Positions 1 to 62,557 of a stretch of 64,000 nt of DNA are shown in pieces. Each line of letters begins with the position of its first letter. Positions within the stretch are counted from its first letter, which is position 1. The notes beneath the pieces are model-generated. The model did not search any database. It was given only the letters and a program-made list of their open reading frames with translations, and had not been told where the DNA came from. A program made the position numbers and the translations under genes. The stretch is taken from sequence record NC_100372.1, one strand, 5' to 3'. The DNA is from a phage.

Positions 1-1983
1 TTATTTGATGTTATTCTTTGTATCAATCAGTTCACGGTATTCAATCATAGCAGGAGTGTCCCAATATTTCAAGCCTACATGCTTCAAAAGTGGATATTTC
101 TTTTCCAATCTTGCAATATAGGCCTTCCCGCACTTAACCCGGTTGGCGATTAAGATTTTGGCACGATGATTTAGCTCACCGTACTTCCACGTGGTGCTAC
201 CTTCCCACTTGTGGAAATGTGGCCGATAACTTCCAAAATCCTGCATGGGGATAATTTTACCTAACTGTCTGTACAGGCTGTCATATGAAGTTTCATTTGC
301 TGCGCGAGTTAGTAAGAATTTCCAAGCATCCTCTTTCAACAAATGTTCCACATTCTTCTCTGTAACATATTGGCAATCAGGATCAGTCCAAAGCAGACGA
401 GATTCCGACACCAGGTACAGATCTTCCCCTTCAGGAATCTGGAGTGCCGAACGCACACGGTCATAATCTTGCTGGTAGATGTTGCTCATCTGCCCTAGCC
501 AACAACTTCCGCGTTGGATATCCCCCTCATACGGTATGCAGTGCTTAATCTTCCTGAACTCTGCCTTAGTAATACGCTCACGCCGGAAGTAACCATCCTT
601 CTCAAGTTTTTTAACCCAATAACCTGGTTCGTAACGGGTTTTGGTTTCACCTTTCTTCGTAGGTCGGCGTGGAAGCTCCGATAACAATTTGACCGTATCT
701 GCAAAAAACGGATGGTGTGCCGCCTCTTTAAACTCTTTCACCAGATCCGTGTTCCGGCAATAGAAAACATTGCGTCCGGTAATCTCGCTTAAGTAGTTAC
801 ATTTATTCCGGTTGTATTTTCCGTCTCCGTCGTTAAATACTAAATAGACTCCCCGTAGGAATTCTACCTTTCCGTAACAAGCGTAGCCTATGCGGCCTTT
901 GTTTAAGCCACCTGCGAAGATCTCGCAGTCTCCCAAATTCCCTAGCCCTGTTTCTTCCCAGCGGTCATACATAAAATTCTTACCGAAGATGTGCCCGAAC
1001 ACTCCGCTGTTCTTCATCATCTCGCGTGCTTCTGAGGATGTTTTTGCTGTCTCCAATTCTGCAACAACTTCTGCTCCACGAAGGCGAATGCCTTCTTTGA
1101 CAAAAGCTTCCAAACGCTCTTGGAATCCACCATCGTCGTGACCTTCTATGGTCCATTCACGCCCTGGGTTAATATTGCAATCTCCGATAGGGATCTCTAC
1201 ACAAATTGCAGGATAATCTGTTAGTGTCTCCAGGAACTTAGAACGGTAAGGTTGGTGACCCATTACCACACGACTCTCGTCAGAGCTGGTATATCCTTTC
1301 AGGATGGTCATCTTCCAACCATCTTTTTCATAATAATACTGCGCCTCTACTTTGTCTCCCTCCAGCATCTTGCTCGTCATCGGATCGGTGACAGTGAACG
1401 GAAATTTTGCATAGCGCAGGCATGATGCAATAGCAGTGCGATATTTCAGAACATGCTCTTTCTTAACATGAAACTGAACTTTTACCCCGTTGTGATCTTC
1501 AGTCTTCCGCTCACGGATCTTGGTGACATTTGGGATACCCTGGTCCAAGAACAATAGGTATGTGCTTTCCACACCGTTGTGCACACTGATTACATCGAAA
1601 GTGTCCACCATGCTGAACGGGGCCTTTGAACCAACACCTTTATTGCCTACCAGAGCGTTGCTGTTGCGCTTGGTTGACTCACCGAGGTTCATGAAAGTGT
1701 TACGGACCATCTCTTCTGACATGCCTAATCCAACGTCCTGCACAAAGAAGTATGGTTCAAGGTCTGTAGGAGAGTGAATGATGATCGGTACATCACCTCG
1801 TCCAGACTCAACATGGGAGTCCACAGCATTGAAGATTGGTTCACGGCAGCTTGCCAGTACCTTATCTTCATAAATCCCTTTGATGATTAGCCCAAAAGTC
1901 TCTTTGTTCAGAGAAATTGATCCCCTGGTTACCTCCATATTCCCAGTTAGCACCGCTTTAGTTTCATTGCTGTTTACAATCAT
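1..1983 (-). CDS. GHKL (Bergerat-fold) ATPase domain protein, possibly rIIA-like
   Basis: 660 aa ORF. N-terminal third carries GHKL motifs in order: E-x3-NAxD (REPIFNAVDS), DxGxG (QDVGLGM), GxxGxG (GNKGVGSKA). C-terminal two thirds not recognised. Stop TAA at 1-3; start ATG overlaps upstream gene stop (ATGA). Confidence 0.5.
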   Translation of the reverse strand: MIVNSNETKAVLTGNMEVTRGSISLNKETFGLIIKGIYEDKVLASCREPIFNAVDSHVESGRGDVPIIIHSPTDLEPYFFVQDVGLGMSEEMVRNTFMNLGESTKRNSNALVGNKGVGSKAPFSMVDTFDVISVHNGVESTYLLFLDQGIPNVTKIRERKTEDHNGVKVQFHVKKEHVLKYRTAIASCLRYAKFPFTVTDPMTSKMLEGDKVEAQYYYEKDGWKMTILKGYTSSDESRVVMGHQPYRSKFLETLTDYPAICVEIPIGDCNINPGREWTIEGHDDGGFQERLEAFVKEGIRLRGAEVVAELETAKTSSEAREMMKNSGVFGHIFGKNFMYDRWEETGLGNLGDCEIFAGGLNKGRIGYACYGKVEFLRGVYLVFNDGDGKYNRNKCNYLSEITGRNVFYCRNTDLVKEFKEAAHHPFFADTVKLLSELPRRPTKKGETKTRYEPGYWVKKLEKDGYFRRERITKAEFRKIKHCIPYEGDIQRGSCWLGQMSNIYQQDYDRVRSALQIPEGEDLYLVSESRLLWTDPDCQYVTEKNVEHLLKEDAWKFLLTRAANETSYDSLYRQLGKIIPMQDFGSYRPHFHKWEGSTTWKYGELNHRAKILIANRVKCGKAYIARLEKKYPLLKHVGLKYWDTPAMIEYRELIDTKNNIK

Positions 1984-2480
1984 TTATTGCGCTCCTTGTA
2001 GTAGATATGGCTCCCGAATTGAGCTGTCCTCTGCATCTTTTTTGCCCATTTCGGTCGCACTTTTGTTGTATGGTAGTGTGTTGCTCCACCTGTTATATCC
2101 ATAGCCATGTATGCAACATGGTTGTTATTATAGACCTTTAGAAGCATCTTTGCAAGACTTTTAGCGTGATCCCATGAATCTTTTTCTGTCACCTTAAAAG
2201 TTTTGCCGTGGTTTGTCCACGAAAACTGGTTAGGTTGGTAGACAATCTTTCTTATAGTGTCTGGGTATTTGGGGTGAGATTTCCTGTTTAGTGTGGCAAA
2301 CCCAGATGCCAGCATACCCATCGTGCCATCCCCTCTAGCCTCCCTGTAGATATTGCATGCCAGAATGTTTTCCTTAGTATCCGACGGCTTGCAGGTGTGA
2401 TATACTTTTTGTTTTGGTGCTGCAACAACAGGCAGCGATAAAAATGCGCTCAAAATAATAGCAAAGATCTTAGTTTTCAC
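1980..2480 (-). CDS. secreted cell-wall hydrolase, SleB/CwlJ-like (Hydrolase_2-type) domain
   Basis: 166 aa. N-terminal signal-peptide-like segment (MKTKIFAIILSAFLSLPVVAAP), then NIYREARG motif typical of SleB/CwlJ-type hydrolases. GTG start with SD TGGAG 5 nt upstream; 4-nt overlap with downstream GHKL gene. Confidence 0.55.
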   Translation of the reverse strand: MKTKIFAIILSAFLSLPVVAAPKQKVYHTCKPSDTKENILACNIYREARGDGTMGMLASGFATLNRKSHPKYPDTIRKIVYQPNQFSWTNHGKTFKVTEKDSWDHAKSLAKMLLKVYNNNHVAYMAMDITGGATHYHTTKVRPKWAKKMQRTAQFGSHIYYKERNK

Positions 2481-2919: not shown

Positions 2920-4104
2920 TCAAGCTTTAGCTAAAATGGCGCTAAACTCTTCACCAAACTCTTTTACAATCTTCATCAGGTTTGGGTATGCTTTGATCAG
3001 CTGAGCAACGATCTTGTCCCTGCCTTTACCAATAAGTAAGGCATTTCCTAAGGCGTTAGGTTTCATCATCGCCATAAAGACTGAGAATACAAAGTCTCGG
3101 TTCTCATCCTTGAAATTTTCCCAAAGGAAATCAAGGAAGTTTGCCACACAGCTGACAAGATCTTCGTCGGAGATACTTGCATTTTCCATCATATTACGAA
3201 TAGCGATACAACCTTCTGACCCCAGAATCCACAAGATGTCTGGCTGCTTAGGACCTACATATTCTTTGCAGCCTCCTGCCATAATCCGACCGATTTCTGG
3301 CAAGTTTCGTTTCTTGGTGTGGTAGGTCCAAATTTCTACCGCTGCAGTGTGACCAATTGCACCTTGTAGAAGGACACGGGCCATAGCGTCAGAAATAATA
3401 CCGCTGTCAAAATCGTGCAGGATGTCAGATGCAGCAACCCAAGATCGCGGTGTGGCAAAAGATGGACAATTAATCTCAGCCATGGCCTCATAATTATCAA
3501 TGGCTGATGGGACTCTTTTCAGATATCCAATTACAGAGGAGTGAACCCCATTAAGGAATGCGTAGTCCTCAATAAACACCTCTGCATTGCTTGTAACTTC
3601 TACAATAATAAAGCGGTTAGCTAGAGGAGCTTCGAGCGCCGAAAGAACAGCACCATCTGTAGCACGGTTACCTGCAGCTACAAAAACAGAACCCTTAGGA
3701 AATGCATAGGTACCGCACTTGTGGTCGAGCATAATTTGCATTGCAACCTTCTGCAGGTAGTTATCCGCATGAGTAAGCTCGTCTAGAAAGATAATTCCGC
3801 TCCAGTCCGGATCTGCAGGCCAAAATTCTGGAATTGCAAACACTGTACGTGTAGTCCCATCCGACTCCACAGGGATAGGCAGTCCAGATAAGTCAGCAGG
3901 ATCTTTATCTGACAACCGCACGTCAACCAGGTTGTCATCTCGCTCACCGAACATATTATCAGCAATCTGCTTCATCACCTGGCTCTTCCCCACACCCATC
4001 GGTCCTAAAATCAGGACAGATCGATTATGACGCTGGGCAAATTGAATAATAGCTGGCAACTCGCGGACAGTGATTTGACCACTTTCGAATACGTTTCTTG
4101 ACAT
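2920..4104 (-). CDS. MoxR/CobS-like AAA+ ATPase
   Basis: 394 aa. Walker A GPMGVGKS, Walker B-like IIFLDELT; size and layout fit MoxR/CobS-family AAA+ proteins. Confidence 0.65.
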   Translation of the reverse strand: MSRNVFESGQITVRELPAIIQFAQRHNRSVLILGPMGVGKSQVMKQIADNMFGERDDNLVDVRLSDKDPADLSGLPIPVESDGTTRTVFAIPEFWPADPDWSGIIFLDELTHADNYLQKVAMQIMLDHKCGTYAFPKGSVFVAAGNRATDGAVLSALEAPLANRFIIVEVTSNAEVFIEDYAFLNGVHSSVIGYLKRVPSAIDNYEAMAEINCPSFATPRSWVAASDILHDFDSGIISDAMARVLLQGAIGHTAAVEIWTYHTKKRNLPEIGRIMAGGCKEYVGPKQPDILWILGSEGCIAIRNMMENASISDEDLVSCVANFLDFLWENFKDENRDFVFSVFMAMMKPNALGNALLIGKGRDKIVAQLIKAYPNLMKIVKEFGEEFSAILAKA

Positions 4105-22317: not shown

Positions 22318-22632
22318 TTACCTTTTACTATGCTCTACAAGCATGTGTAAAATCTTTTGCACATCAGCTCTGATACCGGAGACATCTGTCCTGACATCTT
22401 GCTTAAGGTCGTTGATATCAGCCTCTAGCTTACTTAACCGGGTTTCAATAATGGAATCAAGTCTATCTTTTGTAACCATGCTATTTTTCACTAAAATAAG
22501 GTCTTTCTCCAGCTCATCCAACCTCTTGGAAATGCCTTTCCATTTGGTGTGCCACTGGTTGAAAGCCCATACACAGATCGGGACAACGGTACCCATGCAG
22601 ATACCGTACAATGCCGCCAAATCCAACTCCAC
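22318..22632 (-). CDS. small membrane-anchored coiled-coil protein
   Basis: 104 aa; N-terminal hydrophobic helix (LAALYGICMGTVVPICVWAF) followed by heptad-like charged region. Confidence 0.4.
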   Translation of the reverse strand: MELDLAALYGICMGTVVPICVWAFNQWHTKWKGISKRLDELEKDLILVKNSMVTKDRLDSIIETRLSKLEADINDLKQDVRTDVSGIRADVQKILHMLVEHSKR

Positions 22633-56655: not shown

Positions 56656-58212
56656 TTAATTTTCCATGTTGGATATGGAATTATCTCTGGTTGATGACAT
56701 CTTAGAAGTGCCGTTGCCAGTGGATCCTGCAGCCATTCCATCACCAGCCCTACTGATATCCTGGCCCAAGAGCTTCATTAGCTCTTCCTGATCCATGTCC
56801 TCGTCAAATCTTTCATCAAACCCACCTACTTCAAGAATCTTATTAATTACTGCAGGAGTTTTTGGCAAGTAACCTACAGCACCGATCCTCTGGACAAACT
56901 TGGAGAAGCTCTCCATGTCCACCTCTTCAATCAGACCAGGTTTCAGTTTAGGCATATCATCATCTTCAAGGATGATACCATTCAATGCCAGAAGCTGTGG
57001 AATAAGATCTTTATTGAAGGCCTCAGTGATAATATCTATATCACGCTGAACAAAATGACCATGGATAGACTGTTTTGACTCAGACAGAGAGAAGGATCCG
57101 ACGTTATCGTTACCGAGGTTAATAAAGCCAGCACCGAAACGGTCAAGAATCGCCTTCTTACGGGCATCAATCAAATCTTTAGTGGAATACTGCTTGCCCA
57201 TACCGTCAACCCCCTTCAGGGTCATGGAGTAAAGCTCTTTACCAGACTTATCTCTATCAGACGGAAGTATAAAGAAACTTTGCTCCCCACTATGGGCGTT
57301 TGCTGCGTCAAGCATAAGATCTGCAACCATTCTCCCTTCCATTGAATTCGGGTCAATACTGGCCTTGTTCAAAATATTGGAAGGAATTTTCAGCTCAAGC
57401 ACACCACCAAGGTCTTTGGAACAGCCAACAACCTCAAGGTTTTCAATCAAAACTTTCTCACGGAAAGATCTGTAGCAACCTATCATCGGTGACACACCTG
57501 CAGGGTTAGATTCTGTTCCTGACAGAGTCATGAGCATAAGCTTTTTAGCAGGGATGAAAATTTCAGGCTCATTAAAGCCTTTTGAAGGCATTGCAGCGAG
57601 AGGACCAGCCCAGCGTGCATTCTGCGTGTTTAGAAATGCATTAGGTGATTGATAAATACCTGTCAGTGTTCTACTATTCTTGTCAAAGACAAACGGCTCT
57701 GATCTGGACAAACTGGCCTGTGGTCGGAACGCAATCTTATCAATGAGAAGCATCCCGGCGTATTTGCCTTCTTTCTCTCTGCGGTATACTTTCTCAAACA
57801 GTGAAAAACCATACTCGTTAAAGGTAGCTGCGCTTCTTGCAATATCTCGAAGAGTTTGTTGGTTTGCCAAATTACGCAAAGAATACTCTATAAGCTCGGC
57901 GGCTTTCTTAGAGTCTTCACTTTTAACATTATAAAGGATCTTAAAATCATTGAATGCTTTCGTGATGAAAACATATTTTGTATCTAAGGCAGTAGCAACT
58001 GTGGAATCACATTTCATAGTCTCCACTGTGGCAATCAGCTGAGGCCAACGCAATTCCTCAACCATCATAGATTGTGATTCTGCCATAATTTGGGAAAGTG
58101 CGCCAGAACCGATCTCACTCATACGAACATTATGAGTTGGTGCGCCTGCGTTCCCAGATTTATTCACAGTTTTGGCTGTGGCGTTGTGTTTCCTGCGGTT
58201 CTTTTTGGACAC
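56656..58212 (-). CDS. portal protein
   Basis: 518 aa immediately downstream of terL. Confidence 0.5.
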   Translation of the reverse strand: MSKKNRRKHNATAKTVNKSGNAGAPTHNVRMSEIGSGALSQIMAESQSMMVEELRWPQLIATVETMKCDSTVATALDTKYVFITKAFNDFKILYNVKSEDSKKAAELIEYSLRNLANQQTLRDIARSAATFNEYGFSLFEKVYRREKEGKYAGMLLIDKIAFRPQASLSRSEPFVFDKNSRTLTGIYQSPNAFLNTQNARWAGPLAAMPSKGFNEPEIFIPAKKLMLMTLSGTESNPAGVSPMIGCYRSFREKVLIENLEVVGCSKDLGGVLELKIPSNILNKASIDPNSMEGRMVADLMLDAANAHSGEQSFFILPSDRDKSGKELYSMTLKGVDGMGKQYSTKDLIDARKKAILDRFGAGFINLGNDNVGSFSLSESKQSIHGHFVQRDIDIITEAFNKDLIPQLLALNGIILEDDDMPKLKPGLIEEVDMESFSKFVQRIGAVGYLPKTPAVINKILEVGGFDERFDEDMDQEELMKLLGQDISRAGDGMAAGSTGNGTSKMSSTRDNSISNMEN

Positions 58213-58314
58213 AAGCTTTACCCCTCAAAACAGTATAACAAAATAGCCCTCGTGTCAGAGGGCTAGTATCTCCGATTACTCTATTCTACCACATCTAATT
58301 AAGATTGGCAACAC

Positions 58315-59862
58315 TTAGATAAAACGCTTGAACATAGAAGGTGATGAGATTGATGGAATCACACAAGGCAGCGCTACCTCCTCTTTCTCCAGGAAATTAA
58401 TCGCAGAAGCTACACAGTCGGCCCAGTCGTCTTTTCTGTTAAATGTTGATCTTTCCCCGTTGAACTTTTCAAGTTCAGTCAGAAATGCTTCCAGAGTGTC
58501 AGGATGGAAACTGGATTTTACAATCCTCACCATTCCTTGTTGGGCAAGATTGGCAAAAGGTGAGAACCTTGTCAGTTTAGATTTGTTGGAAGGCATTGGA
58601 TCTTCTTCAACCCTGAACCCTTCGGCGAGCAAAGATCTGGACGAGGTTAAGAACTCACTCTTACCTGCCTGACCGGGGTCTACAGAAAATACGATTATGC
58701 AATCATCTCCATCAAACTGCGCCTGTTTCCTGATGATCACATCTCGTTCCCCAGCCTTTTTACAGAACTTTCCTTCCAGACCTGTGGAATACCTACCGTC
58801 ATCCACGTTCTCAGGACAATAATCCCCGGACAGGTAATAAAAGCCGTCGCTATCTTTACTTACCTTAACACTGGCAGTAAAGTCAGGAAATTTATTACCG
58901 GAAGTTCTCTCGGTTCCTGCCTTATCCCATGCCCTGCAAGATACTGATCCAAGAGGTACTCTATCGGCATCCCGAAGGAAAGATCTTTGGAAATAGTTTG
59001 CACCCTCAGGTTTGGCAAACCAGTTGCCATGAAGAAGCTGGGCTTTTTCAAGCTCGGGTAGACCTTCAAGGAAAGCAAGGTATTCCGGGTTGTCTCTCAA
59101 ACAGACAGGATTATCGAAAATTGTTGCGCCTATAAACGAGAATGACAACGGTCTTGGCTTGATCTCCACACCCAGTCCGTTAACCGTGGTGTATTTCTCT
59201 ATTAACTCTTCTTTAGAGTCTCCCCAAATAAATTCACCGTCGCGTCGGATAAAATATCTTTTCTTACCACATTTCTCCGGATCTGGATACCCTTCATCGT
59301 CCAACCACCACCTAACCAGTTTGGCAAGCATGTGTTCTGAGTCGGGGTTACAGCTGATAACCATTCTTGATGGATACTTTGACTGAGATCGCAGACGAGA
59401 CATCAAATAGTCTATCTGCTCCCATTCGAATTGCGTGCCTTCATCGAAGCAAACCATGGTGTACTCAAGGCCTTGATGGTTAAGCTTATCTTGGACATAC
59501 TCCATGTGGCAGTATTTTACAACGGCCCCTTTTTTGCTCCTGTCCCACTTGCCAGTGCTCGGATCAAACCGTGGAAAAATAAACTTATGATCCTTCTCTC
59601 TGAACTTTGGTTTAATGTTTTCAGGCAGATCACTGTAGATAGCTACTGCTTTAGGCCATAGCCCACCCTCACCTTCCAACTGGGGAGTTGTTCTTCGGAA
59701 CATAACCACAGAGCTGTGCGGGTCATCAATAATTTTAAGCGGCATTAGCTGCAAGAGGAACGACTTGCCAGACCCAGCTGCACCTCCGATCACCAAAATA
59801 TCTGCATCGTTCTCTAGGATCATCTTCTGCTTTTCAGAACACGGTCCGTAAATCTTAGACAT
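58315..59862 (-). CDS. terL: terminase large subunit
   Basis: 515 aa; Walker A VIGGAAGSGKS, Walker B-like MVCFDEGTQ, C-terminal acidic nuclease-like residues; start overlaps o-spanin stop (TAATG). Confidence 0.7.
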   Translation of the reverse strand: MSKIYGPCSEKQKMILENDADILVIGGAAGSGKSFLLQLMPLKIIDDPHSSVVMFRRTTPQLEGEGGLWPKAVAIYSDLPENIKPKFREKDHKFIFPRFDPSTGKWDRSKKGAVVKYCHMEYVQDKLNHQGLEYTMVCFDEGTQFEWEQIDYLMSRLRSQSKYPSRMVISCNPDSEHMLAKLVRWWLDDEGYPDPEKCGKKRYFIRRDGEFIWGDSKEELIEKYTTVNGLGVEIKPRPLSFSFIGATIFDNPVCLRDNPEYLAFLEGLPELEKAQLLHGNWFAKPEGANYFQRSFLRDADRVPLGSVSCRAWDKAGTERTSGNKFPDFTASVKVSKDSDGFYYLSGDYCPENVDDGRYSTGLEGKFCKKAGERDVIIRKQAQFDGDDCIIVFSVDPGQAGKSEFLTSSRSLLAEGFRVEEDPMPSNKSKLTRFSPFANLAQQGMVRIVKSSFHPDTLEAFLTELEKFNGERSTFNRKDDWADCVASAINFLEKEEVALPCVIPSISSPSMFKRFI

Positions 59863-60149
59863 TAACCTCTCTCCTTTGGAAACAGTGTTCTTATATAGTC
59901 TTGCAAAATGATCAATTTAGCTCTATCATTACTACAAGACAGGTTATTATCCCTCATAATGCCAGAATTCACCGCATCTGGCGCACCTTTCTTCAAAGGG
60001 ATAGCTTTAGCAGGTGGTTTCATAGCACCCTCGGGAGGTTTAACAATCAACCTTCCTACATCCGGAGGGTCAATCTTGTATTCTCTCTCAACACTGGTTG
60101 CACACCCACACAATAACAAGCACAAAACAACCAGTGCAGTAACTCTCAT
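59862..60149 (-). CDS. o-spanin-like outer-membrane lipoprotein
   Basis: 95 aa; lipoprotein signal with lipobox LLLCGC, proline-rich mature part (KPPEGAMKPPAKAIPLKKGAPD). Confidence 0.5.
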   Translation of the reverse strand: MRVTALVVLCLLLCGCATSVEREYKIDPPDVGRLIVKPPEGAMKPPAKAIPLKKGAPDAVNSGIMRDNNLSCSNDRAKLIILQDYIRTLFPKERG

Positions 60150-60544
60150 CGAACCTCCTGATTGATACTCTCATTATAAATATCTATTAGCTGATCAGGA
60201 AGTGTTGACTTCTTACCTTCAGGAGATTGGAGGTAGATAATCTGCTTTTCTTTACCTGCCTTCTCAGCCATATTTAATTTATCCTGTAGATCAGAAAGAG
60301 ATTTTTCAAGGTTTTTAACCTCCTCTGCGTGGCCCATTTTAATTTTGTCGGCTTGCTTTTGTTGTTGGTCAAGGATCCGTTCCCACTTCAACTCTGTTGC
60401 TGACACACCTTCCTGATAAGCATCATTGAGCTTAGAGTTAAACCAATACACGGCCCCAAGATAAGCCATGCCTATAGCCGCTGCAAAAACTAAACCTTTT
60501 ATGATCCCTCTGTATTTACTCATCAATGTTAAGACTGAAATCAT
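60146..60544 (-). CDS. i-spanin-like protein
   Basis: 132 aa; N-terminal TM helix (GLVFAAAIGMAYLGAVYWF), coiled-coil periplasmic domain; 4-nt overlap with o-spanin gene. Confidence 0.5.
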   Translation of the reverse strand: MISVLTLMSKYRGIIKGLVFAAAIGMAYLGAVYWFNSKLNDAYQEGVSATELKWERILDQQQKQADKIKMGHAEEVKNLEKSLSDLQDKLNMAEKAGKEKQIIYLQSPEGKKSTLPDQLIDIYNESINQEVR

Positions 60545-60582
60545 TTTAAGGCTCCAGAAACGAAAAAACCCCGCAGCTATAC

Positions 60583-60615
60583 AGCTAACGGGGCGGGTTA
60601 AAATTGAGTAACCTA
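60583..60615 (-). terminator. terminator-like hairpin with U-tract
   Basis: Minus-strand RNA CCCCG-(17-nt loop with internal AGCU pairing)-CGGGG followed by UUUUUUCG; between 60650..60919 and the spanin/terL block. Confidence 0.4.
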
Positions 60616-60649
60616 AATAGATCGAAACTAACTAAAAGGAGACTAATAC

Positions 60650-60919
60650 TTATCGAGGCACTCGGTGGATGATTCTGACAGTAACCGCATTCTCATTCAT
60701 CAAGTAAGCATCCACATCTCTGTAAATATAAAACTTCTGCTCGCTATCAACAACACAAGCTACTGCCCCTTCAGAGTTGTCTTCAAAGAAGACCACAACT
60801 GCATCGCAGCTTAGTTCATGATACGACTCTCGAAGATTTACAGCAAGAGGGTTGAAATCTTCACGAAAATCTACAGTATGGGTTGGATTTACACGTTCTA
60901 CAATTTTAAGTGTATACAT
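60650..60919 (-). CDS. hypothetical protein
   Basis: 89 aa ORF just downstream of the tRNA array. Confidence 0.45.
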   Translation of the reverse strand: MYTLKIVERVNPTHTVDFREDFNPLAVNLRESYHELSCDAVVVFFEDNSEGAVACVVDSEQKFYIYRDVDAYLMNENAVTVRIIHRVPR

Positions 60920-60965: not shown

Positions 60966-61042
60966 TGGTCTCCACGGAGTGATTCGAACACTCGACCTCC
61001 TGATCCCAAATCAGGCGCTCTACCAAGCTGAGCTACGCGGAG
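60966..61042 (-). tRNA. tRNA-Pro (anticodon UGG)
   Basis: Manual cloverleaf: acceptor CTCCGCG/CGTGGAG, D-arm GCTC..GAGC, anticodon loop UUUGGGA, T-arm GAGTG-TTCGAAT-CACTC, 3' CCA encoded. Confidence 0.65.
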
Positions 61043-61053
61043 TATTTATTATT

Positions 61054-61128
61054 TGGTGGCCCTGGGTGGAATTGAACCACCGTCTGGCGATTATGAGTCG
61101 CTTGCTTGAACCTTCCAGCTACAGGGCC
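61054..61128 (-). tRNA. tRNA-Met or Ile2 (anticodon CAU)
   Basis: Acceptor GGCCCTG/CAGGGCC, anticodon loop CUCAUAA, T-arm GGTGG-TTCAATT-CCACC, CCA encoded; G1-C72 pair argues against initiator. Confidence 0.6.
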
Positions 61129-61129
61129 A

Positions 61130-61205
61130 TGGTGCTGATGGCAGGACTTGAACCTGCAACCTATTGATTACAAATCAATTGCACTGCCAATTGTGCTACA
61201 TCAGC
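61130..61205 (-). tRNA. tRNA-Thr (anticodon UGU)
   Basis: Acceptor GCTGATG/CATCAGC, D-stem GCAC/GTGC, anticodon stem ATTGA/TCAAT with loop UUUGUAA, T-loop TTCAAGT, CCA encoded. Confidence 0.65.
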
Positions 61206-61209
61206 AAAA

Positions 61210-61308
61210 GGTGCTAGGTGATGGAATCGAACCACCTATGTATTCAACGACTACCTCGTCTATTTTCAGGATTAAAAATCCTCGCCCTTGCCAAAGGGCT
61301 TACCTAGC
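61210..61308 (-). tRNA. atypical tRNA-like element (about 99 nt; anticodon arm ambiguous, possibly UUU)
   Basis: Perfect 7-bp acceptor pairing GCTAGGT/ACCTAGC, D-arm GCCC-TTTGGCAA-GGGC, T-arm GGTGG-TTCGATT-CCATC, but about 30 nt between anticodon hairpin and T-arm; CCA not fully encoded. Confidence 0.4.
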
Positions 61309-61406
61309 GCAATATGTTGACCATGTGGCTAGTCGGCGATGACGACTGTAACATTTGATAATCCGGTTCTGCTTCCGGCTTTCGCTTAATTACAAGGTCA
61401 ACAATG

Positions 61407-61497
61407 TGGCGGAGAGTAATGGAATCGAACCATCATCGAGTCATCCTCAACGGGACGGTTTTCAAGACCGCTTGAGCACCATTGCTCCCTACCCTCC
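61407..61497 (-). tRNA. tRNA-Ser (anticodon UGA), long variable arm
   Basis: Acceptor GGAGGGT/ACTCTCC (one G-U), anticodon stem GCGGT/ACCGT with loop CUUGAAA, about 20-nt variable arm, T-arm GATGG-TTCGATT-CCATT, discriminator G, CCA encoded. Confidence 0.6.
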
Positions 61498-61601
61498 TTT
61501 ATAAATTACACTGATAATGACACTGATTTTCGAGCAGTTAGTGACTAGTATAAACGACGATAAATATCAATGTCATTATCTGTATGATTTATGCATTTAA
61601 A

Positions 61602-61688
61602 AATATAAATTTGGTGGGGAGTGGTGGAGTCGAACCACCCGAGTCGCAATGACAATAGATTTACAGTCTACACCGCTACCTCTACGGG
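61602..61688 (-). tRNA. tRNA-Tyr (anticodon GUA)
   Basis: Acceptor GGGGAGT/ACTCCCC, anticodon loop CUGUAAA, variable arm about 13 nt, T-arm GGTGG-TTCGACT-CCACC, discriminator A, CCA encoded. Confidence 0.65.
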
Positions 61689-61692
61689 ATAA

Positions 61693-61767
61693 CTCCCCAA
61701 TTTGGCACCCCGTACTGGACTCGAACCAGTGTCAACGGCTTAGAAGGCCGCTGCTTTATCCACTAAG
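61693..61767 (-). tRNA. tRNA-Arg (anticodon UCU)
   Basis: Acceptor GCCCTGT/ACGGGGT (two G-U), D-arm GCTT..AAGC, anticodon stem GCGGC/GCCGT with loop CUUCUAA, T-arm ACTGG-TTCGAGT-CCAGT, CCA encoded. Confidence 0.6.
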
Positions 61768-61835
61768 CTAACAGGGCACTGGGTGGCTTTCTTTTACACC
61801 TGAGCCGCCAGAAAAGGTGGGAGACCATGTTTATA

Positions 61836-61864
61836 ATATTACACTGTTAGGCAAAGTTTGTCAA
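61836..61864 (-). promoter_or_regulatory. sigma70-like promoter for the tRNA array (TTGACA-17-TAATAT)
   Basis: On minus strand: -35 TTGACA (plus 61859-61864), 17-nt spacer, -10 TAATAT (plus 61836-61841); about 60 nt upstream of tRNA-Arg. Confidence 0.5.
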
Positions 61865-61873
61865 GAAAATATT

Positions 61874-62212
61874 TTAACTATTGCCAACAGGCTGTATTTC
61901 TGTGGTAAATGGCATAAAAGGTGCTGGTTTTTCAGCCTCTTCTACTACCACCTCTTCCTCTTCACCAAACATCTCATCATATTCTTCCTGCATTCGGTCT
62001 GCCTTATCAAGAACATACTCTGCAATGCTTTGACGAATATTTTGTTTGGTTTTCGGGTCCAACATCAGCTCTCTTAAAACTTTGTGAGCTTCTGGAACCA
62101 TCGCTATAAAAGATTCCTTCATATCAAGAATGTTCTTCTCTAGCTGAATGGCGTTGGACTCCTCTTTCAGAGGTCTGCCTCTACGGCGACGCTTTTTAGT
62201 TGTATCCGCCAT
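61874..62212 (-). CDS. small basic protein with Arg-rich AT-hook-like N-terminus and acidic C-terminus
   Basis: Track ORF 61874..62332; internal ATG at 62212 (MADTTKKRRRRGRPLK) has strong SD GGAGG 4 nt upstream. C-terminus acidic (EEEEVVVEEAE). Confidence 0.45.
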   Translation of the reverse strand: MADTTKKRRRRGRPLKEESNAIQLEKNILDMKESFIAMVPEAHKVLRELMLDPKTKQNIRQSIAEYVLDKADRMQEEYDEMFGEEEEVVVEEAEKPAPFMPFTTEIQPVGNS

Positions 62213-62557
62213 GTTTCCTCCATTATCACGTGATAGGTGGATTTTATCACGGCAAATACTGATTGTCAAGTTCGCCGCAGGGTGGTATTCCCTGCGACTT
62301 GCCCAGCGTCCTGGACCAGCAAGACCCAACAAGTGGGTTACCAGATACCCATTACCGCGCTCTGGCTCGACCTTATTACAGGTTGGCTGGGGTCACATCG
62401 TCATGTGCTGGCTGCCCCTACCATTTTAAGTGTGGTGCACTATCAAGCCCTCTAAGGGGAACTCAGCCTTCTCCGAACCCTGTTTCAAAGCATCCGGAGA
62501 TAAAGCCATCAAACTCATCTTTAAATTGGATATTCATCATGATACACGAAAACAACC

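What the first reader, a model, noticed from the sequence alone, without database searches (positions are those of the whole stretch)
59860..60544. Spanin pair translationally coupled to terL, with no small terminase, holin or endolysin gene beside it
The i-spanin (TM plus coiled coil) and o-spanin (lipobox LLLCGC, Pro-rich) overlap by 4 nt, and the o-spanin stop overlaps the terL start (TAATG). The position where a small terminase subunit is usually found is thus occupied by lysis genes, and the only candidate muralytic enzyme is about 58 kb away in the early region. Either terS lies outside the window or is highly divergent, and the lysis cassette is split.
Basis: partly seen in the sequence, partly recalled or inferred. 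Interest (0 to 1): 0.4.

Follow-up and report, generated by a model that had tools for sequence, protein, structure and literature searches.

The report
Known spanin–terL layout; hidden small terminase
The spanin gene pair abutting the large terminase gene is real, but it is the standard, already published layout of rV5-like coliphages. The apparently missing small terminase is probably an unannotated 112-residue protein 1.3 kb upstream.

Summary
The window is a Vequintavirus (rV5-like E. coli myophage), 95-99% identical to more than 100 GenBank genomes.

**Observation: confirmed.**
- The i-spanin (60146-60544) and o-spanin (59862-60149) overlap by ATGA.
- The o-spanin stop overlaps the terL start (TAATG).
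- Both match spanin PHROG families.

**Not new.** Kongari 2018 lists rv5 spanin families. Buttimer 2020 states that in CB7, rV5 and PVP-SE1 the spanins sit next to terL, outside any lysis cassette. Curated BASEL records annotate the same order.

**Lysis genes are scattered.**
- In 99%-identical relatives the lysozyme-type endolysin lies about 10 kb beyond the spanins on the other strand, just outside the window.
- The rV5 paper puts a putative holin elsewhere.
- The in-window SleB-like hydrolase (1980-2480) sits beside rIIA.

**Added result: a probable terS at 61874-62212(-), family phrog_3330.** Every sampled phage record calls it hypothetical.
- Its relatives lie upstream of terL on the same strand in all 19 IMG/VR loci where the profile found one, and abut terL in at least eight loci.
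- Its helical hairpin resembles the PaP3/NV1 small-terminase core, but the statistics are marginal.
- I put the terS assignment at about 0.65.

Interest is low for the finding itself and moderate for the terS lead.

The parts
60146..60544 (-). i-spanin gene (132 aa): N-terminal transmembrane segment followed by a charged periplasmic domain that is probably helical.
   Evidence: ORF and translation. phrog_4297 'Rz-like spanin', E 1e-48. Hydropathy peak 1.94 at residues 14-32. SD GGAG lies 8 nt before the ATG. Annotated i-spanin in BASEL Bas59 and other records.
59862..60149 (-). o-spanin gene (95 aa): lipoprotein signal with lipobox LCGC, lipidated Cys16, Ala at +2, a Pro-rich mature part and a single periplasmic Cys72.
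   Evidence: phrog_1267 'Rz-like spanin', E 4.3e-22. ATGA overlap with the i-spanin and TAATG overlap with terL.
58315..59862 (-). terL, large terminase (515 aa). It is intact, with no intron or intein, and its Walker A motif GGAAGSGKS starts at residue 26.
   Evidence: phrog_979, E 1.7e-208. Pfam Terminase_6N 4.6e-20 and Terminase_6C 2.7e-6.
60563..60593 (-). Intrinsic-terminator-like hairpin (11 pairs with one bulge) followed by U6. It ends 18 nt before the i-spanin ATG.
   Evidence: Sequence. RNA fold of 60540-60620(-): -22 kcal/mol, z-score -2.3. Analogous hairpin plus T-run just upstream of the i-spanin in L024, L034, L057 and L011.
60650..60919 (-). 89-aa ORF of unknown function (phrog_8729) that travels with this module.
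   Evidence: Similar N-terminal sequences (compared by eye) in the phi92-like phage ALITA (L006 1660-1929) and in metagenomic L011 (3557-3832).
60966..61777 (-). Cluster of seven tRNA genes (Pro, Met/Ile-CAT, Thr, an atypical 99-nt tRNA-like gene, Ser, Tyr, Arg).
   Evidence: ARAGORN. Rfam tRNA hits for six of them.
61874..62212 (-). Candidate small terminase (terS), 112 aa. It has a basic N-terminus with RRRRGRP (AT-hook-like), a two-helix hairpin, an acidic tail and a conserved C-terminal PFTTxI motif. Family phrog_3330, 'unknown function'.
   Evidence: See Best explanation for the argument.
62241..62269 (-). Near-consensus sigma-70-type promoter (TTGACA-17-TAAAAT with an upstream TG) in front of the terS candidate.
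   Evidence: Promoter scan, 11 of 12 matches. Sequence with SD GGAGG 5 nt before the ATG.
58244..58265 (-). Terminator-like hairpin between terL and the portal gene. A sigma-70-like site precedes it at 58283-58311.
56656..58212 (-). Portal protein gene, next in the head-morphogenesis series.
   Evidence: phrog_113, E 1.9e-88. BASEL annotation.
1980..2480 (-). SleB-like cell-wall hydrolase with an N-terminal signal peptide, immediately upstream of rIIA (1-1983).
   Evidence: Pfam Hydrolase_2, E 2.1e-19. phrog_938 endolysin, E 1.7e-27. Hydrophobic N-terminus. BASEL context: cell wall hydrolase, rIIA, rIIB.

Best explanation
**1. [quoted passage not shown] They are arranged in the 'separated' architecture with a 4-nt overlap. 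By analogy with lambda Rz/Rz1 and T4 PseT.3/PseT.2, they should accumulate in the envelope late in infection. They would disrupt the outer membrane only after holin and endolysin have removed the peptidoglycan.

**2. Their position is the fixed layout of this phage group.** They open the spanin-terL-portal-head series, and this order is conserved in Vequintavirinae and in phi92-like Stephanstirmvirinae. terL starts on the o-spanin stop codon (TAATG) and has its SD inside the o-spanin gene. terL translation is therefore probably tied to whatever gene lies upstream. In more distant relatives that upstream gene is the terS candidate, with the same type of junction (GGAGGTTAA followed by GTG or TTG).

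**3. The remaining lysis genes are scattered.** The lysozyme-type endolysin lies about 10 kb away on the other strand, outside the window. A putative holin lies elsewhere. A secreted SleB-like hydrolase sits next to rIIA/rIIB.

**4. terS is probably not missing.** The 112-aa protein at 61874-62212(-) is proposed to be a divergent small terminase without a helix-turn-helix domain. It has an AT-hook-like RGRP motif, a helical-hairpin oligomerisation core and an acidic tail. Seven tRNA genes, an 89-aa ORF, a terminator and the spanin pair separate it from terL.

**Shown versus inferred.** Shown: sequence features, family matches, synteny, and weak homology to a small-terminase fold. Inferred: spanin function, translational coupling, terS function, and the transcription pattern.
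For: **Spanins.**
- PHROG E-values of 1e-48 and 4e-22.
- Transmembrane segment, lipobox, +2 Ala, periplasmic Cys72 and Pro-rich region.
- The rv5 i- and o-spanin families are listed in Kongari 2018 (PMC6139136).
- Annotated as i-/o-spanin in several GenBank records, including curated BASEL Bas59.

**Layout is conserved and published.**
- LL12: gp64 TerL, gp65 o-spanin, gp66 i-spanin, gp90 endolysin, holin not identified (PMC6658697).
- Spanin homologues directly before terL in Mydovirus Seu621 (90-nt gap), in the phi92-like phage ALITA (o-spanin 3012-3341, terL from 3350), and in IMG/VR loci L019-L022, L024-L026, L034 and L054.

**Scattered lysis genes.**, and the rV5 paper (lysin gp89, putative holin gp129; PMC3606486).

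**terS candidate.**
- *a. Synteny.*
  - P0041 abuts terL in L011 (6375|6376, TAATTG).
  - P0044 abuts terL in L015 (TAAGTG).
  - P0043 lies 55 nt before a short terL first exon in L013.
  - Among 80 IMG/VR loci of this TerL clade, the family profile hit 19 at E<1e-4. Every hit was upstream of terL on the same strand. Six were within 36 nt of the TerL match: L037, L057, L064, L075, L094 and L096.
- *b. Homology.*
  - A library-wide profile search found P0047 (E 4e-4). P0047 matches both phrog_2538 'terminase small subunit' (5e-9) and phrog_3330 (1e-7).
  - The family profile including P0047 ranks NV1 (7joq, E 0.0011) and PaP3 (6w7t, E 0.0031) small terminases first in the PDB.
  - hhalign of the family against NV1/PaP3-type TerS gives 68-84% probability. 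It aligns candidate residues 31-72 with NV1 residues 67-108, the alpha4-alpha5 oligomerisation hairpin described by Niazi 2020.
- *c. Structure.*
  - The AF2 model has mean pLDDT 78, above 85 for residues 11-80, and forms a two-helix hairpin.
  - The top 7 Foldseek PDB hits are all NV1/PaP3 TerS chains. Probability reaches 0.98 and rmsd is 2.0-2.5 A over 54 columns. The next hits have E>4.
- *d. Architecture.* The basic N-terminus, hairpin and acidic tail mirror the PaP3 TerS core plus acidic tail.
- *e. Precedent.* PaP3-like phages have the order tRNAs, terS, lysozyme, terL.
Against: **Spanins.**
- No rV5-type spanin has been tested experimentally.
- The lipobox has Cys at -2, which is atypical.
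- The i-spanin has no Cys, and the Mydovirus homologue pair has no periplasmic Cys at all.
- My crude heptad test of the i-spanin was not significant (81 of 1000 shuffles reached the observed score).

**terS candidate.**
- The window protein itself has no Pfam or PHROG small-terminase hit.
- Without the bridging sequence P0047, the PDB matches fall to E 0.14-0.28.
- Foldseek E-values (0.12-0.5) are not significant at database level, and a helical hairpin is a low-complexity fold.
- The protein lacks the helix-turn-helix domain that binds DNA in PaP3, Sf6 and lambda small terminases.
- The gene has its own near-consensus sigma-70 promoter and is separated from terL by a terminator. That would also fit a regulator.
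- A slot just upstream of the packaging genes is also where late-gene activators such as RinA sit in other phages.

**Transcription.** No promoter fits between the terminator (60563-60593) and the i-spanin start. How the spanin-terL unit is transcribed is unexplained.
Confidence: 0.72

Rival explanations
1. The phrog_3330 protein is not a terminase subunit. It is instead a small DNA-binding regulator or accessory factor, for example a late-gene activator encoded just ahead of the packaging genes. The phage would then package DNA with TerL alone or with an unidentified partner.
For: - The gene has a strong sigma-70-type promoter of its own, and a terminator separates it from the spanin-terL unit.
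- It has an AT-hook-like motif rather than a helix-turn-helix.
- The window protein has no significant small-terminase family hit.
- One GenBank record calls it 'putative regulatory protein'.
- The small terminase of the related-TerL phage ICP1 is still reported as unknown (PMC11417361).
Against: - Family members abut terL with stop/start junctions in several lineages. This is typical of a stoichiometric partner.
- No other small-terminase-like gene lies between them and terL in those loci.
- The solved structures that repeatedly come out on top are small terminases only.
- The bridging protein P0047 hits a small-terminase PHROG.
Confidence: 0.2
2. The true terS lies outside the 64-kb window, elsewhere in the roughly 136-kb genome, and the in-window candidate is a red herring.
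For: - Only 64 of about 136 kb were visible.
- The other lysis genes are dispersed, so packaging genes could be too.
Against: - The curated BASEL record annotates no terS in the stretches I read (about 55 of 131.5 kb), nor does the Pharokka-style record in its first 31 kb.
- In every related locus where the candidate family was found, it is linked to terL on the same strand.
Confidence: 0.06
3. The two small ORFs are not lysis proteins. They would be some other envelope-targeted pair, for example superinfection-exclusion proteins, that merely have spanin-like signals.
For: - There are no experimental data for this spanin family.
- The genes are not linked to a holin or endolysin.
- The lipobox is atypical (Cys at -2).
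Against: - Full-length matches to two spanin PHROGs.
- The pairing, order and overlap are conserved from Vequintavirinae through phi92-like phages to metagenomic relatives.
- T4 and SP6/VP4 are precedents for spanins away from the lysis cassette (PMC6139136, PMC7344957).
- No other spanin candidate was found in the window.
Confidence: 0.04

Closest known systems
Spanin pairs of rV5, PVP-SE1 and Certrevirus CB7 (Vequintavirinae), as described by Kongari et al. 2018 and Buttimer et al. 2020
   Same: Same protein families (phrog_4297 and phrog_1267), same order (i-spanin, o-spanin, terL), the same stop/start overlap between the two spanin genes, and the same absence of a neighbouring holin or endolysin.
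   Different: Nothing of substance: this window is a member of that group. The o-spanin/terL junction varies: a 1-nt overlap here, a 90-nt gap in Mydovirus Seu621, and an 8-nt gap in the phi92-like phage ALITA.
Phage T4 PseT.3 / PseT.2 (separated two-component spanin located away from holin t and endolysin e)
   Same: Separate adjacent genes, a position unlinked to holin and endolysin, and a large virulent myovirus with rIIA/rIIB.
   Different: No sequence similarity was tested or expected. The T4 pair is not next to the terminase genes.
Lambda Rz / Rz1
   Same: The same predicted topology and mechanism: a type II inner-membrane protein plus an outer-membrane lipoprotein that span the periplasm. 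At least one periplasmic Cys is available for a homotypic disulfide (o-spanin C72).
   Different: In lambda, Rz1 is embedded within Rz and the pair is the last element of the S-R-Rz cassette. Here the genes are separate and head the packaging operon. The i-spanin here has no Cys.
PaP3 / NV1 small terminase (PDB 6w7t, 7joq; Niazi et al. 2020)
   Same: The terS candidate aligns with the alpha4-alpha5 helical hairpin of the oligomerisation core and also has an acidic C-terminal tail. PaP3-like genomes likewise place a tRNA cluster next to terS and a lysis gene (lysozyme) between terS and terL.
   Different: The candidate lacks the N-terminal helix-turn-helix domain and has an RGRP / AT-hook-like motif instead. 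No beta-strand is predicted after the hairpin. The similarity is statistically marginal. Oligomeric state and DNA binding are untested.
Vibrio phage ICP1 packaging module (TerL about 34% identical; small terminase reported unknown in Boyd et al. 2024)
   Same: Same TerL clade and the same terL, portal, protease, scaffold, decoration, capsid order. ICP1 Gp135 (124 aa, RKRGRGRP......IRLIERFIDRAEALLDDYYE, acidic tail) weakly resembles the candidate family (hhalign 61%).
   Different: In ICP1 the holin and antiholin genes (teaA/arrA), not spanin genes, lie upstream of this region. The Gp135 similarity is weak and unverified.

Membership tests
Two-component spanin (i-spanin / o-spanin) | i-spanin: a single N-terminal transmembrane domain, N-in / C-out. 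| tested here: met
   One hydrophobic segment at about residues 14-35 (Kyte-Doolittle mean 1.94), with K9, R12 and K16 before it.
Two-component spanin (i-spanin / o-spanin) | i-spanin periplasmic domain is mainly alpha-helical / coiled coil. | tested here: inconclusive
   E/K/Q/L-rich composition. The best heptad contrast (0.65, residues 74-101) was reached by 81 of 1000 shuffles. No structure prediction was run for it.
Two-component spanin (i-spanin / o-spanin) | o-spanin: a signal peptidase II signal with a lipobox Cys, and no Asp at +2 (outer-membrane sorting). | tested here: met
   MRVTALVVLCLLLCGC|ATS: lipobox LCGC (Cys at -2 is atypical) and Ala at +2. The aligned Cys follows VG, TG and AG in Seu621, ALITA and L011. 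No dedicated LipoP run was available.
Two-component spanin (i-spanin / o-spanin) | The genes are adjacent (embedded, overlapped or separated), with the i-spanin gene first. | tested here: met
   Separated architecture with a 4-nt ATGA overlap.
Two-component spanin (i-spanin / o-spanin) | At least one periplasmic Cys for an intermolecular disulfide (Kongari 2018). | tested here: met
   o-spanin C72; the i-spanin has none. The Mydovirus Seu621 pair has none at all, so the feature is not conserved across the family.
Two-component spanin (i-spanin / o-spanin) | Sequence membership of a curated spanin family. | tested here: met
   phrog_4297 at 1e-48 and phrog_1267 at 4.3e-22. The rv5 families are listed in PMC6139136.
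Two-component spanin (i-spanin / o-spanin) | Required for outer-membrane disruption; complements lambda Rz/Rz1. | not testable with these tools
   An experiment is needed.
Large terminase (TerL, T4-like Terminase_6) | An N-terminal ATPase with a Walker A motif plus a C-terminal RNaseH-like nuclease. | tested here: met
   Terminase_6N 4.6e-20 and Terminase_6C 2.7e-6; GGAAGSGKS at residues 26-34.
Small terminase (TerS), for the candidate at 61874-62212 | A small protein encoded upstream of terL on the same strand, usually adjacent. | tested here: met
   In the window it lies 2.0 kb upstream of terL on the same strand. Family members abut terL in L011, L015, L037, L057, L064, L075, L094 and L096. 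All 19 IMG/VR hits are upstream on the same strand.
Small terminase (TerS), for the candidate at 61874-62212 | An N-terminal DNA-binding domain (helix-turn-helix or winged helix). | tested here: not met
   No helix-turn-helix is present. The first 15 residues are basic and predicted disordered, with an invariant G-R-P (AT-hook-like). Only the distant relative P0047 carries an extra N-terminal domain.
Small terminase (TerS), for the candidate at 61874-62212 | A central helical oligomerisation core homologous to a known small terminase. | tested here: inconclusive
   hhalign 68-84% to the NV1/PaP3-type TerS hairpin. The top Foldseek hits are all NV1/PaP3 TerS, but with E 0.12-0.5. The HMM-versus-PDB search gives E 0.0011 with the bridging sequence and 0.14-0.28 without it.
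Small terminase (TerS), for the candidate at 61874-62212 | Ring oligomer (8-11-mer), binding to pac/cos DNA, and stimulation or recruitment of TerL. | not testable with these tools
   Needs biochemistry or a multimer prediction.

The most novel reading that the evidence does not exclude
phrog_3330 is the long-unidentified small terminase of the rV5 / phi92 TerL lineage, possibly extending to ICP1 Gp135, whose small terminase the literature states is unknown.

It would be a minimal small terminase without a helix-turn-helix: an AT-hook-like RGRP motif, a PaP3-like helical hairpin and an acidic tail.

In Vequintavirinae, the tRNA cluster and the spanin pair separate terS from terL. terL would then be translationally tied to an outer-membrane lysis gene rather than to its own partner subunit.
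Probability: 0.55. Interest if true: 0.5.

Novelty: already known. Interest (0 to 1): 0.3.

Why it matters
The finding as written does not change anything. The spanin pair and its position next to terL are annotated in GenBank and discussed in at least three papers.

What could matter is the by-product. More than 200 phage records encode the 112-aa protein, and all 60 sampled label it hypothetical, including the rV5, PVP-SE1, phiTE and CR8/CR9 reference genomes. A 2024 study of the related phage ICP1 says its small terminase is unknown.

A testable small-terminase candidate for this lineage would help in three ways:
- defining packaging-initiation sites and transduction risk in rV5-like therapeutic and biocontrol phages;
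- choosing genome start points for annotation;
- studying satellites that hijack this packaging motor.

Tried and rejected
1. **A small terminase fused to TerL.** phrog_979 aligns only from profile position 147, and phi92-like TerL is 694 aa. The extra segment in ALITA is an intein inserted in the Walker A motif (GGAAG|C...HIFVTGN|SGKS), not a small-terminase domain.
2. **The 89-aa ORF directly upstream of the spanins as terS.** It has no family hit beyond phrog_8729 (unknown function) and no basic or helical character.
3. **Direct annotation of the candidate.** Pfam and PHROG gave no small-terminase hit for the window protein, even at E up to 10.
4. **Possible family members in other phages.** Pakpunavirus Zigelbrucke orf047 and Barba13A gp092 were not significantly similar to the close-homologue profile. 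More distant GNPxGRP-type proteins were recovered only later, with the broader profile.
5. **A locus scan with the family alignment.** I scanned with a TerL alignment instead.
6. **Holin in the window.**
   - No small protein has 2-3 transmembrane segments.
   - The only membrane candidates are the spanins, the signal-peptide hydrolase and a 104-aa single-TMD protein among the tail-fibre genes.
   - The 68-aa protein after the endolysin in relatives has one N-terminal hydrophobic segment but no holin family hit.
7. **The motif TGATAAAAT as a phage promoter element.** It occurs 4 times against about 1 expected, all on the coding strand. That is too few to conclude anything.
8. **Heptad test for a coiled coil in the i-spanin.** Not significant.
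Full report
**What the window is.** A 3-kb query around the finding matches 120 phage records at 90-99% identity, nearly all of them Vequintavirus (rV5-like) E. coli myophages. Relatives with useful annotation are NHEP1 (Pharokka-style) and the manually curated BASEL phage Bas59 EduardKellenberger.

**Checking the observation.** All genes in question are on the minus strand.
- ORF 60146-60544 (132 aa) and ORF 59862-60149 (95 aa) overlap by ATGA.
- The 95-aa ORF's TAA overlaps the ATG of a 515-aa ORF at 58315-59862, giving TAATG.
- The 132-aa protein has one N-terminal hydrophobic segment preceded by basic residues, then a charged 96-residue domain.
- The 95-aa protein begins MRVTALVVLCLLLCGC|ATS. 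This gives a lipobox with the lipidated Cys at position 16 and Ala at +2, followed by a Pro-rich stretch and one further Cys, C72.
- The two proteins match phrog_4297 (E 1e-48) and phrog_1267 (E 4e-22), both 'Rz-like spanin'. The 515-aa protein is TerL: phrog_979 at 1.7e-208, plus Terminase_6N and Terminase_6C.
- Each downstream gene has its own Shine-Dalgarno inside the preceding gene.
- Overlaps of 1 or 4 nt occur at 14 of 61 same-strand junctions in this window. The overlap is therefore real but routine, and 'translational coupling' remains an inference.
- My crude heptad test for a coiled coil in the i-spanin was not significant.

**The layout is already known.**
- Kongari et al. 2018 list rv5 i-spanin and o-spanin families (PMC6139136).
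- The LL12 genome announcement names gp64 TerL, gp65 o-spanin, gp66 i-spanin and gp90 endolysin. It states that the holin could not be identified (PMC6658697).
- Buttimer et al. 2020 state that in CB7, rV5 and PVP-SE1 the spanin pair is not part of a classic lysis cassette because it lies next to the large terminase. They note the same arrangement in podoviruses such as SP6 and VP4 (PMC7344957).
- The BASEL record starts at the i-spanin and annotates i-spanin, o-spanin, TerL and portal, with no terS.
- I confirmed the adjacency in three further places: Mydovirus Seu621 (90-nt gap before terL); the phi92-like phage ALITA, where the true o-spanin ORF (3012-3341, lipobox MTGC) stops 8 nt before terL; and nine IMG/VR loci whose TerL is at least 58% identical.

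**Where the other lysis genes are.**
- The in-window muralytic candidate (1980-2480) is a SleB-like Hydrolase_2 protein with a signal peptide. It sits immediately upstream of rIIA and rIIB.
- In NHEP1 and Bas59 the annotated endolysin (phrog_90, no transmembrane segment) lies about 10 kb beyond the spanins on the opposite strand, among DNA-metabolism genes. That corresponds to roughly window position 70.7 kb, outside the window.
- The rV5 paper names gp89 as the lysin and gp129, a two-TMD protein elsewhere in the genome, as a putative holin (PMC3606486).
- No two- or three-TMD small protein is present in the window.
- The lysis genes are thus scattered over at least three or four loci, as in T4. 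No terS-holin-endolysin cassette sits just outside the window.

**The missing small terminase.** No record annotates a terS in the regions I read.
- TerL relatives (tblastn) include Seunavirus and Mydovirus, phi92-like phages, Barbavirus, Pakpunavirus, Felix O1-like phages and ICP1. None of the six loci I examined has an annotated terS.
- For ICP1 the literature says outright that the small terminase is unknown (PMC11417361).
- An apparent N-terminal extension of phi92-like TerL is an intein in the Walker A motif, not a fused small terminase.

*The candidate.* The 112-aa ORF at 61874-62212(-) stood out. It has a basic N-terminus (KKRRRRGRP), helices, an acidic tail and a conserved C-terminal PFTTxI motif. 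It belongs to phrog_3330, 'unknown function', as does the ALITA homologue in the same position. All 60 sampled records out of 226 tblastn hits call it hypothetical.

*Evidence 1: synteny.*
- In metagenomic contigs, family members P0041 and P0044 abut terL (TAATTG and TAAGTG junctions, with GGAGG inside the upstream gene).
- P0043 lies 55 nt before a short terL first exon.
- P0040 lies 2 kb upstream with tRNA genes nearby.
- In 80 IMG/VR loci retrieved with a TerL alignment, a profile built without the bridging sequence hit 19 loci at E<1e-4. All hits were upstream of terL on the same strand, and six were within 36 nt of the TerL match.

*Evidence 2: homology.*
- A search of 1.8 billion cluster representatives found only 22 clusters.
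- One of them, P0047 (E 4e-4), matches both phrog_2538 'terminase small subunit' (5e-9) and phrog_3330 (1e-7).
- With P0047 in the profile, the two best PDB sequences are the NV1 and PaP3 small terminases (E 0.0011 and 0.0031). Without it they remain ranks 2-3, but at E 0.14-0.28.
- Profile-profile comparison with an alignment of NV1/PaP3-type small terminases gives 68-84% probability. It aligns candidate residues 31-72 with NV1 residues 67-108, the alpha4-alpha5 oligomerisation hairpin.

*Evidence 3: structure.*
- The AlphaFold model has pLDDT 78, above 85 for residues 11-80, and forms a two-helix hairpin with disordered ends.
- The seven best Foldseek PDB hits are all NV1/PaP3 small-terminase chains. 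Probability reaches 0.98 and rmsd is about 2 A over 54 columns. E-values are only 0.12-1.3, and the next hits are unrelated at E>4.
- A weaker first model gave the same ranking.

*Caveats.*
- The protein has no helix-turn-helix domain.
- The homology statistics are marginal.
- The gene has its own near-consensus sigma-70-type promoter and is separated from terL by a terminator.
- A late-gene regulator could occupy a similar genomic slot.

I put the terS assignment at about 0.65.

**Comparative picture.** Three gene orders occur in this TerL clade.
- terS directly before terL: L015, L037, L075, L094 and L096.
- i-spanin, o-spanin, an insert, terS, terL: L011, L057 and L064.
- terS, tRNAs, orf89, i-spanin, o-spanin, terL: Vequintavirinae and phi92-like phages.

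The spanin pair is therefore an old neighbour of the packaging genes. In the rV5 lineage it sits between terS and terL, and the tight SD-stop-start junction of terL is kept with a different upstream partner. This last step is an inference. PaP3-like podoviruses, whose small terminase is the closest solved relative, have tRNAs, terS, lysozyme, terL. A lysis gene between the two terminase genes therefore has precedent.

**Expression.**
- A terminator-like hairpin with U6 (60563-60593) ends 18 nt before the i-spanin ATG, leaving no room for a promoter.
- Similar hairpins precede the i-spanin in four other lineages.
- A second terminator-like site follows terL.
- One reading is that promoters at 62241-62269 and 61836-61864 drive terS, the tRNAs and orf89 strongly, while the spanins and terL are expressed by partial read-through. 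This is untested.
- The rV5 paper found sigma-70-like promoters throughout the genome. It also found a TggTAaAAtA motif before late genes, which resembles the TGATAAAAT -10 element of the candidate's promoter.

**Verdict.** The only new element is an annotation-level prediction of the small terminase. It is moderately supported and experimentally testable.

Noticed in passing
window 61210-61308 (-): An atypical 97-99-nt tRNA-like gene. ARAGORN reports a 4-base anticodon 'atcc', and the Rfam tRNA score is only 35.5 bits. BASEL annotates a tRNA-Lys(AAA) at the equivalent place, and NHEP1 omits it.
   Followed up: partly
window 60563-60593 (-) and 58244-58265 (-): Terminator-like hairpins bracket the spanin-terL unit. 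The upstream one ends 18 nt before the i-spanin ATG, so no promoter fits between them. Comparable hairpins precede the i-spanin in L011, L024, L034 and L057.
   Followed up: partly
L004 2193-2564 (Vibrio phage ICP1 Gp135): This 124-aa protein (RKRGRGRP..., ...IRLIERFIDRAEALLDDYYE, acidic tail) lies 3.4 kb upstream of ICP1 terL on the same strand. It weakly resembles the terS candidate family (hhalign 61%). The ICP1 small terminase is reported as unknown.
   Followed up: partly
L006 3350-5434 (phage ALITA terL); also relatives: terL in this clade is a hotspot for selfish elements. There is an intein in the Walker A motif of the phi92-like TerL. Introns or homing-endonuclease insertions split terL in rV5, LL12, ECP26, HMD-6, DrSchubert, ICP1, Barba13A, L013, L015 and L016. 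The window's terL is intact.
   Followed up: partly
window 1980-2480 (-) with 1-1983 (-): A secreted SleB-like cell-wall hydrolase gene overlaps the start of rIIA by 4 nt, and rIIB follows in relatives. For Certrevirus, the literature suggests that the homologous protein takes part in lysis.
   Followed up: partly
window 22318-22632 (-): A 104-aa protein with one N-terminal transmembrane segment and a helical C-terminal part (phrog_5345, unknown function), lying among the tail-fibre genes. It is the only other small membrane-protein candidate in the window.
   Followed up: no
window 60650-60919 (-): An 89-aa ORF (phrog_8729, unknown function) travels with the tRNA/spanin/terminase module. Similar N-terminal sequences are seen in ALITA (L006 1660-1929) and metagenomic L011 (3557-3832).
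   Followed up: no
(GenBank MG0656xx records): Eighteen records named 'Campylobacter phage' (host C. jejuni) are 95-100% identical to this coliphage over the regions tested. This suggests mislabelled or contaminating rV5-like phages.
   Followed up: no
L001 21120-21326 (NHEP1; outside the window): A 68-aa protein with an N-terminal hydrophobic segment (phrog_4641, unknown function) lies immediately after the endolysin gene. It may be a holin or a secreted partner. It is unannotated in all records seen.
   Followed up: no
window 62220-62250 (-): CGTGATAA occurs twice, once across the -10 element and once just before the SD of the terS candidate. This could be an operator-like repeat.
   Followed up: no
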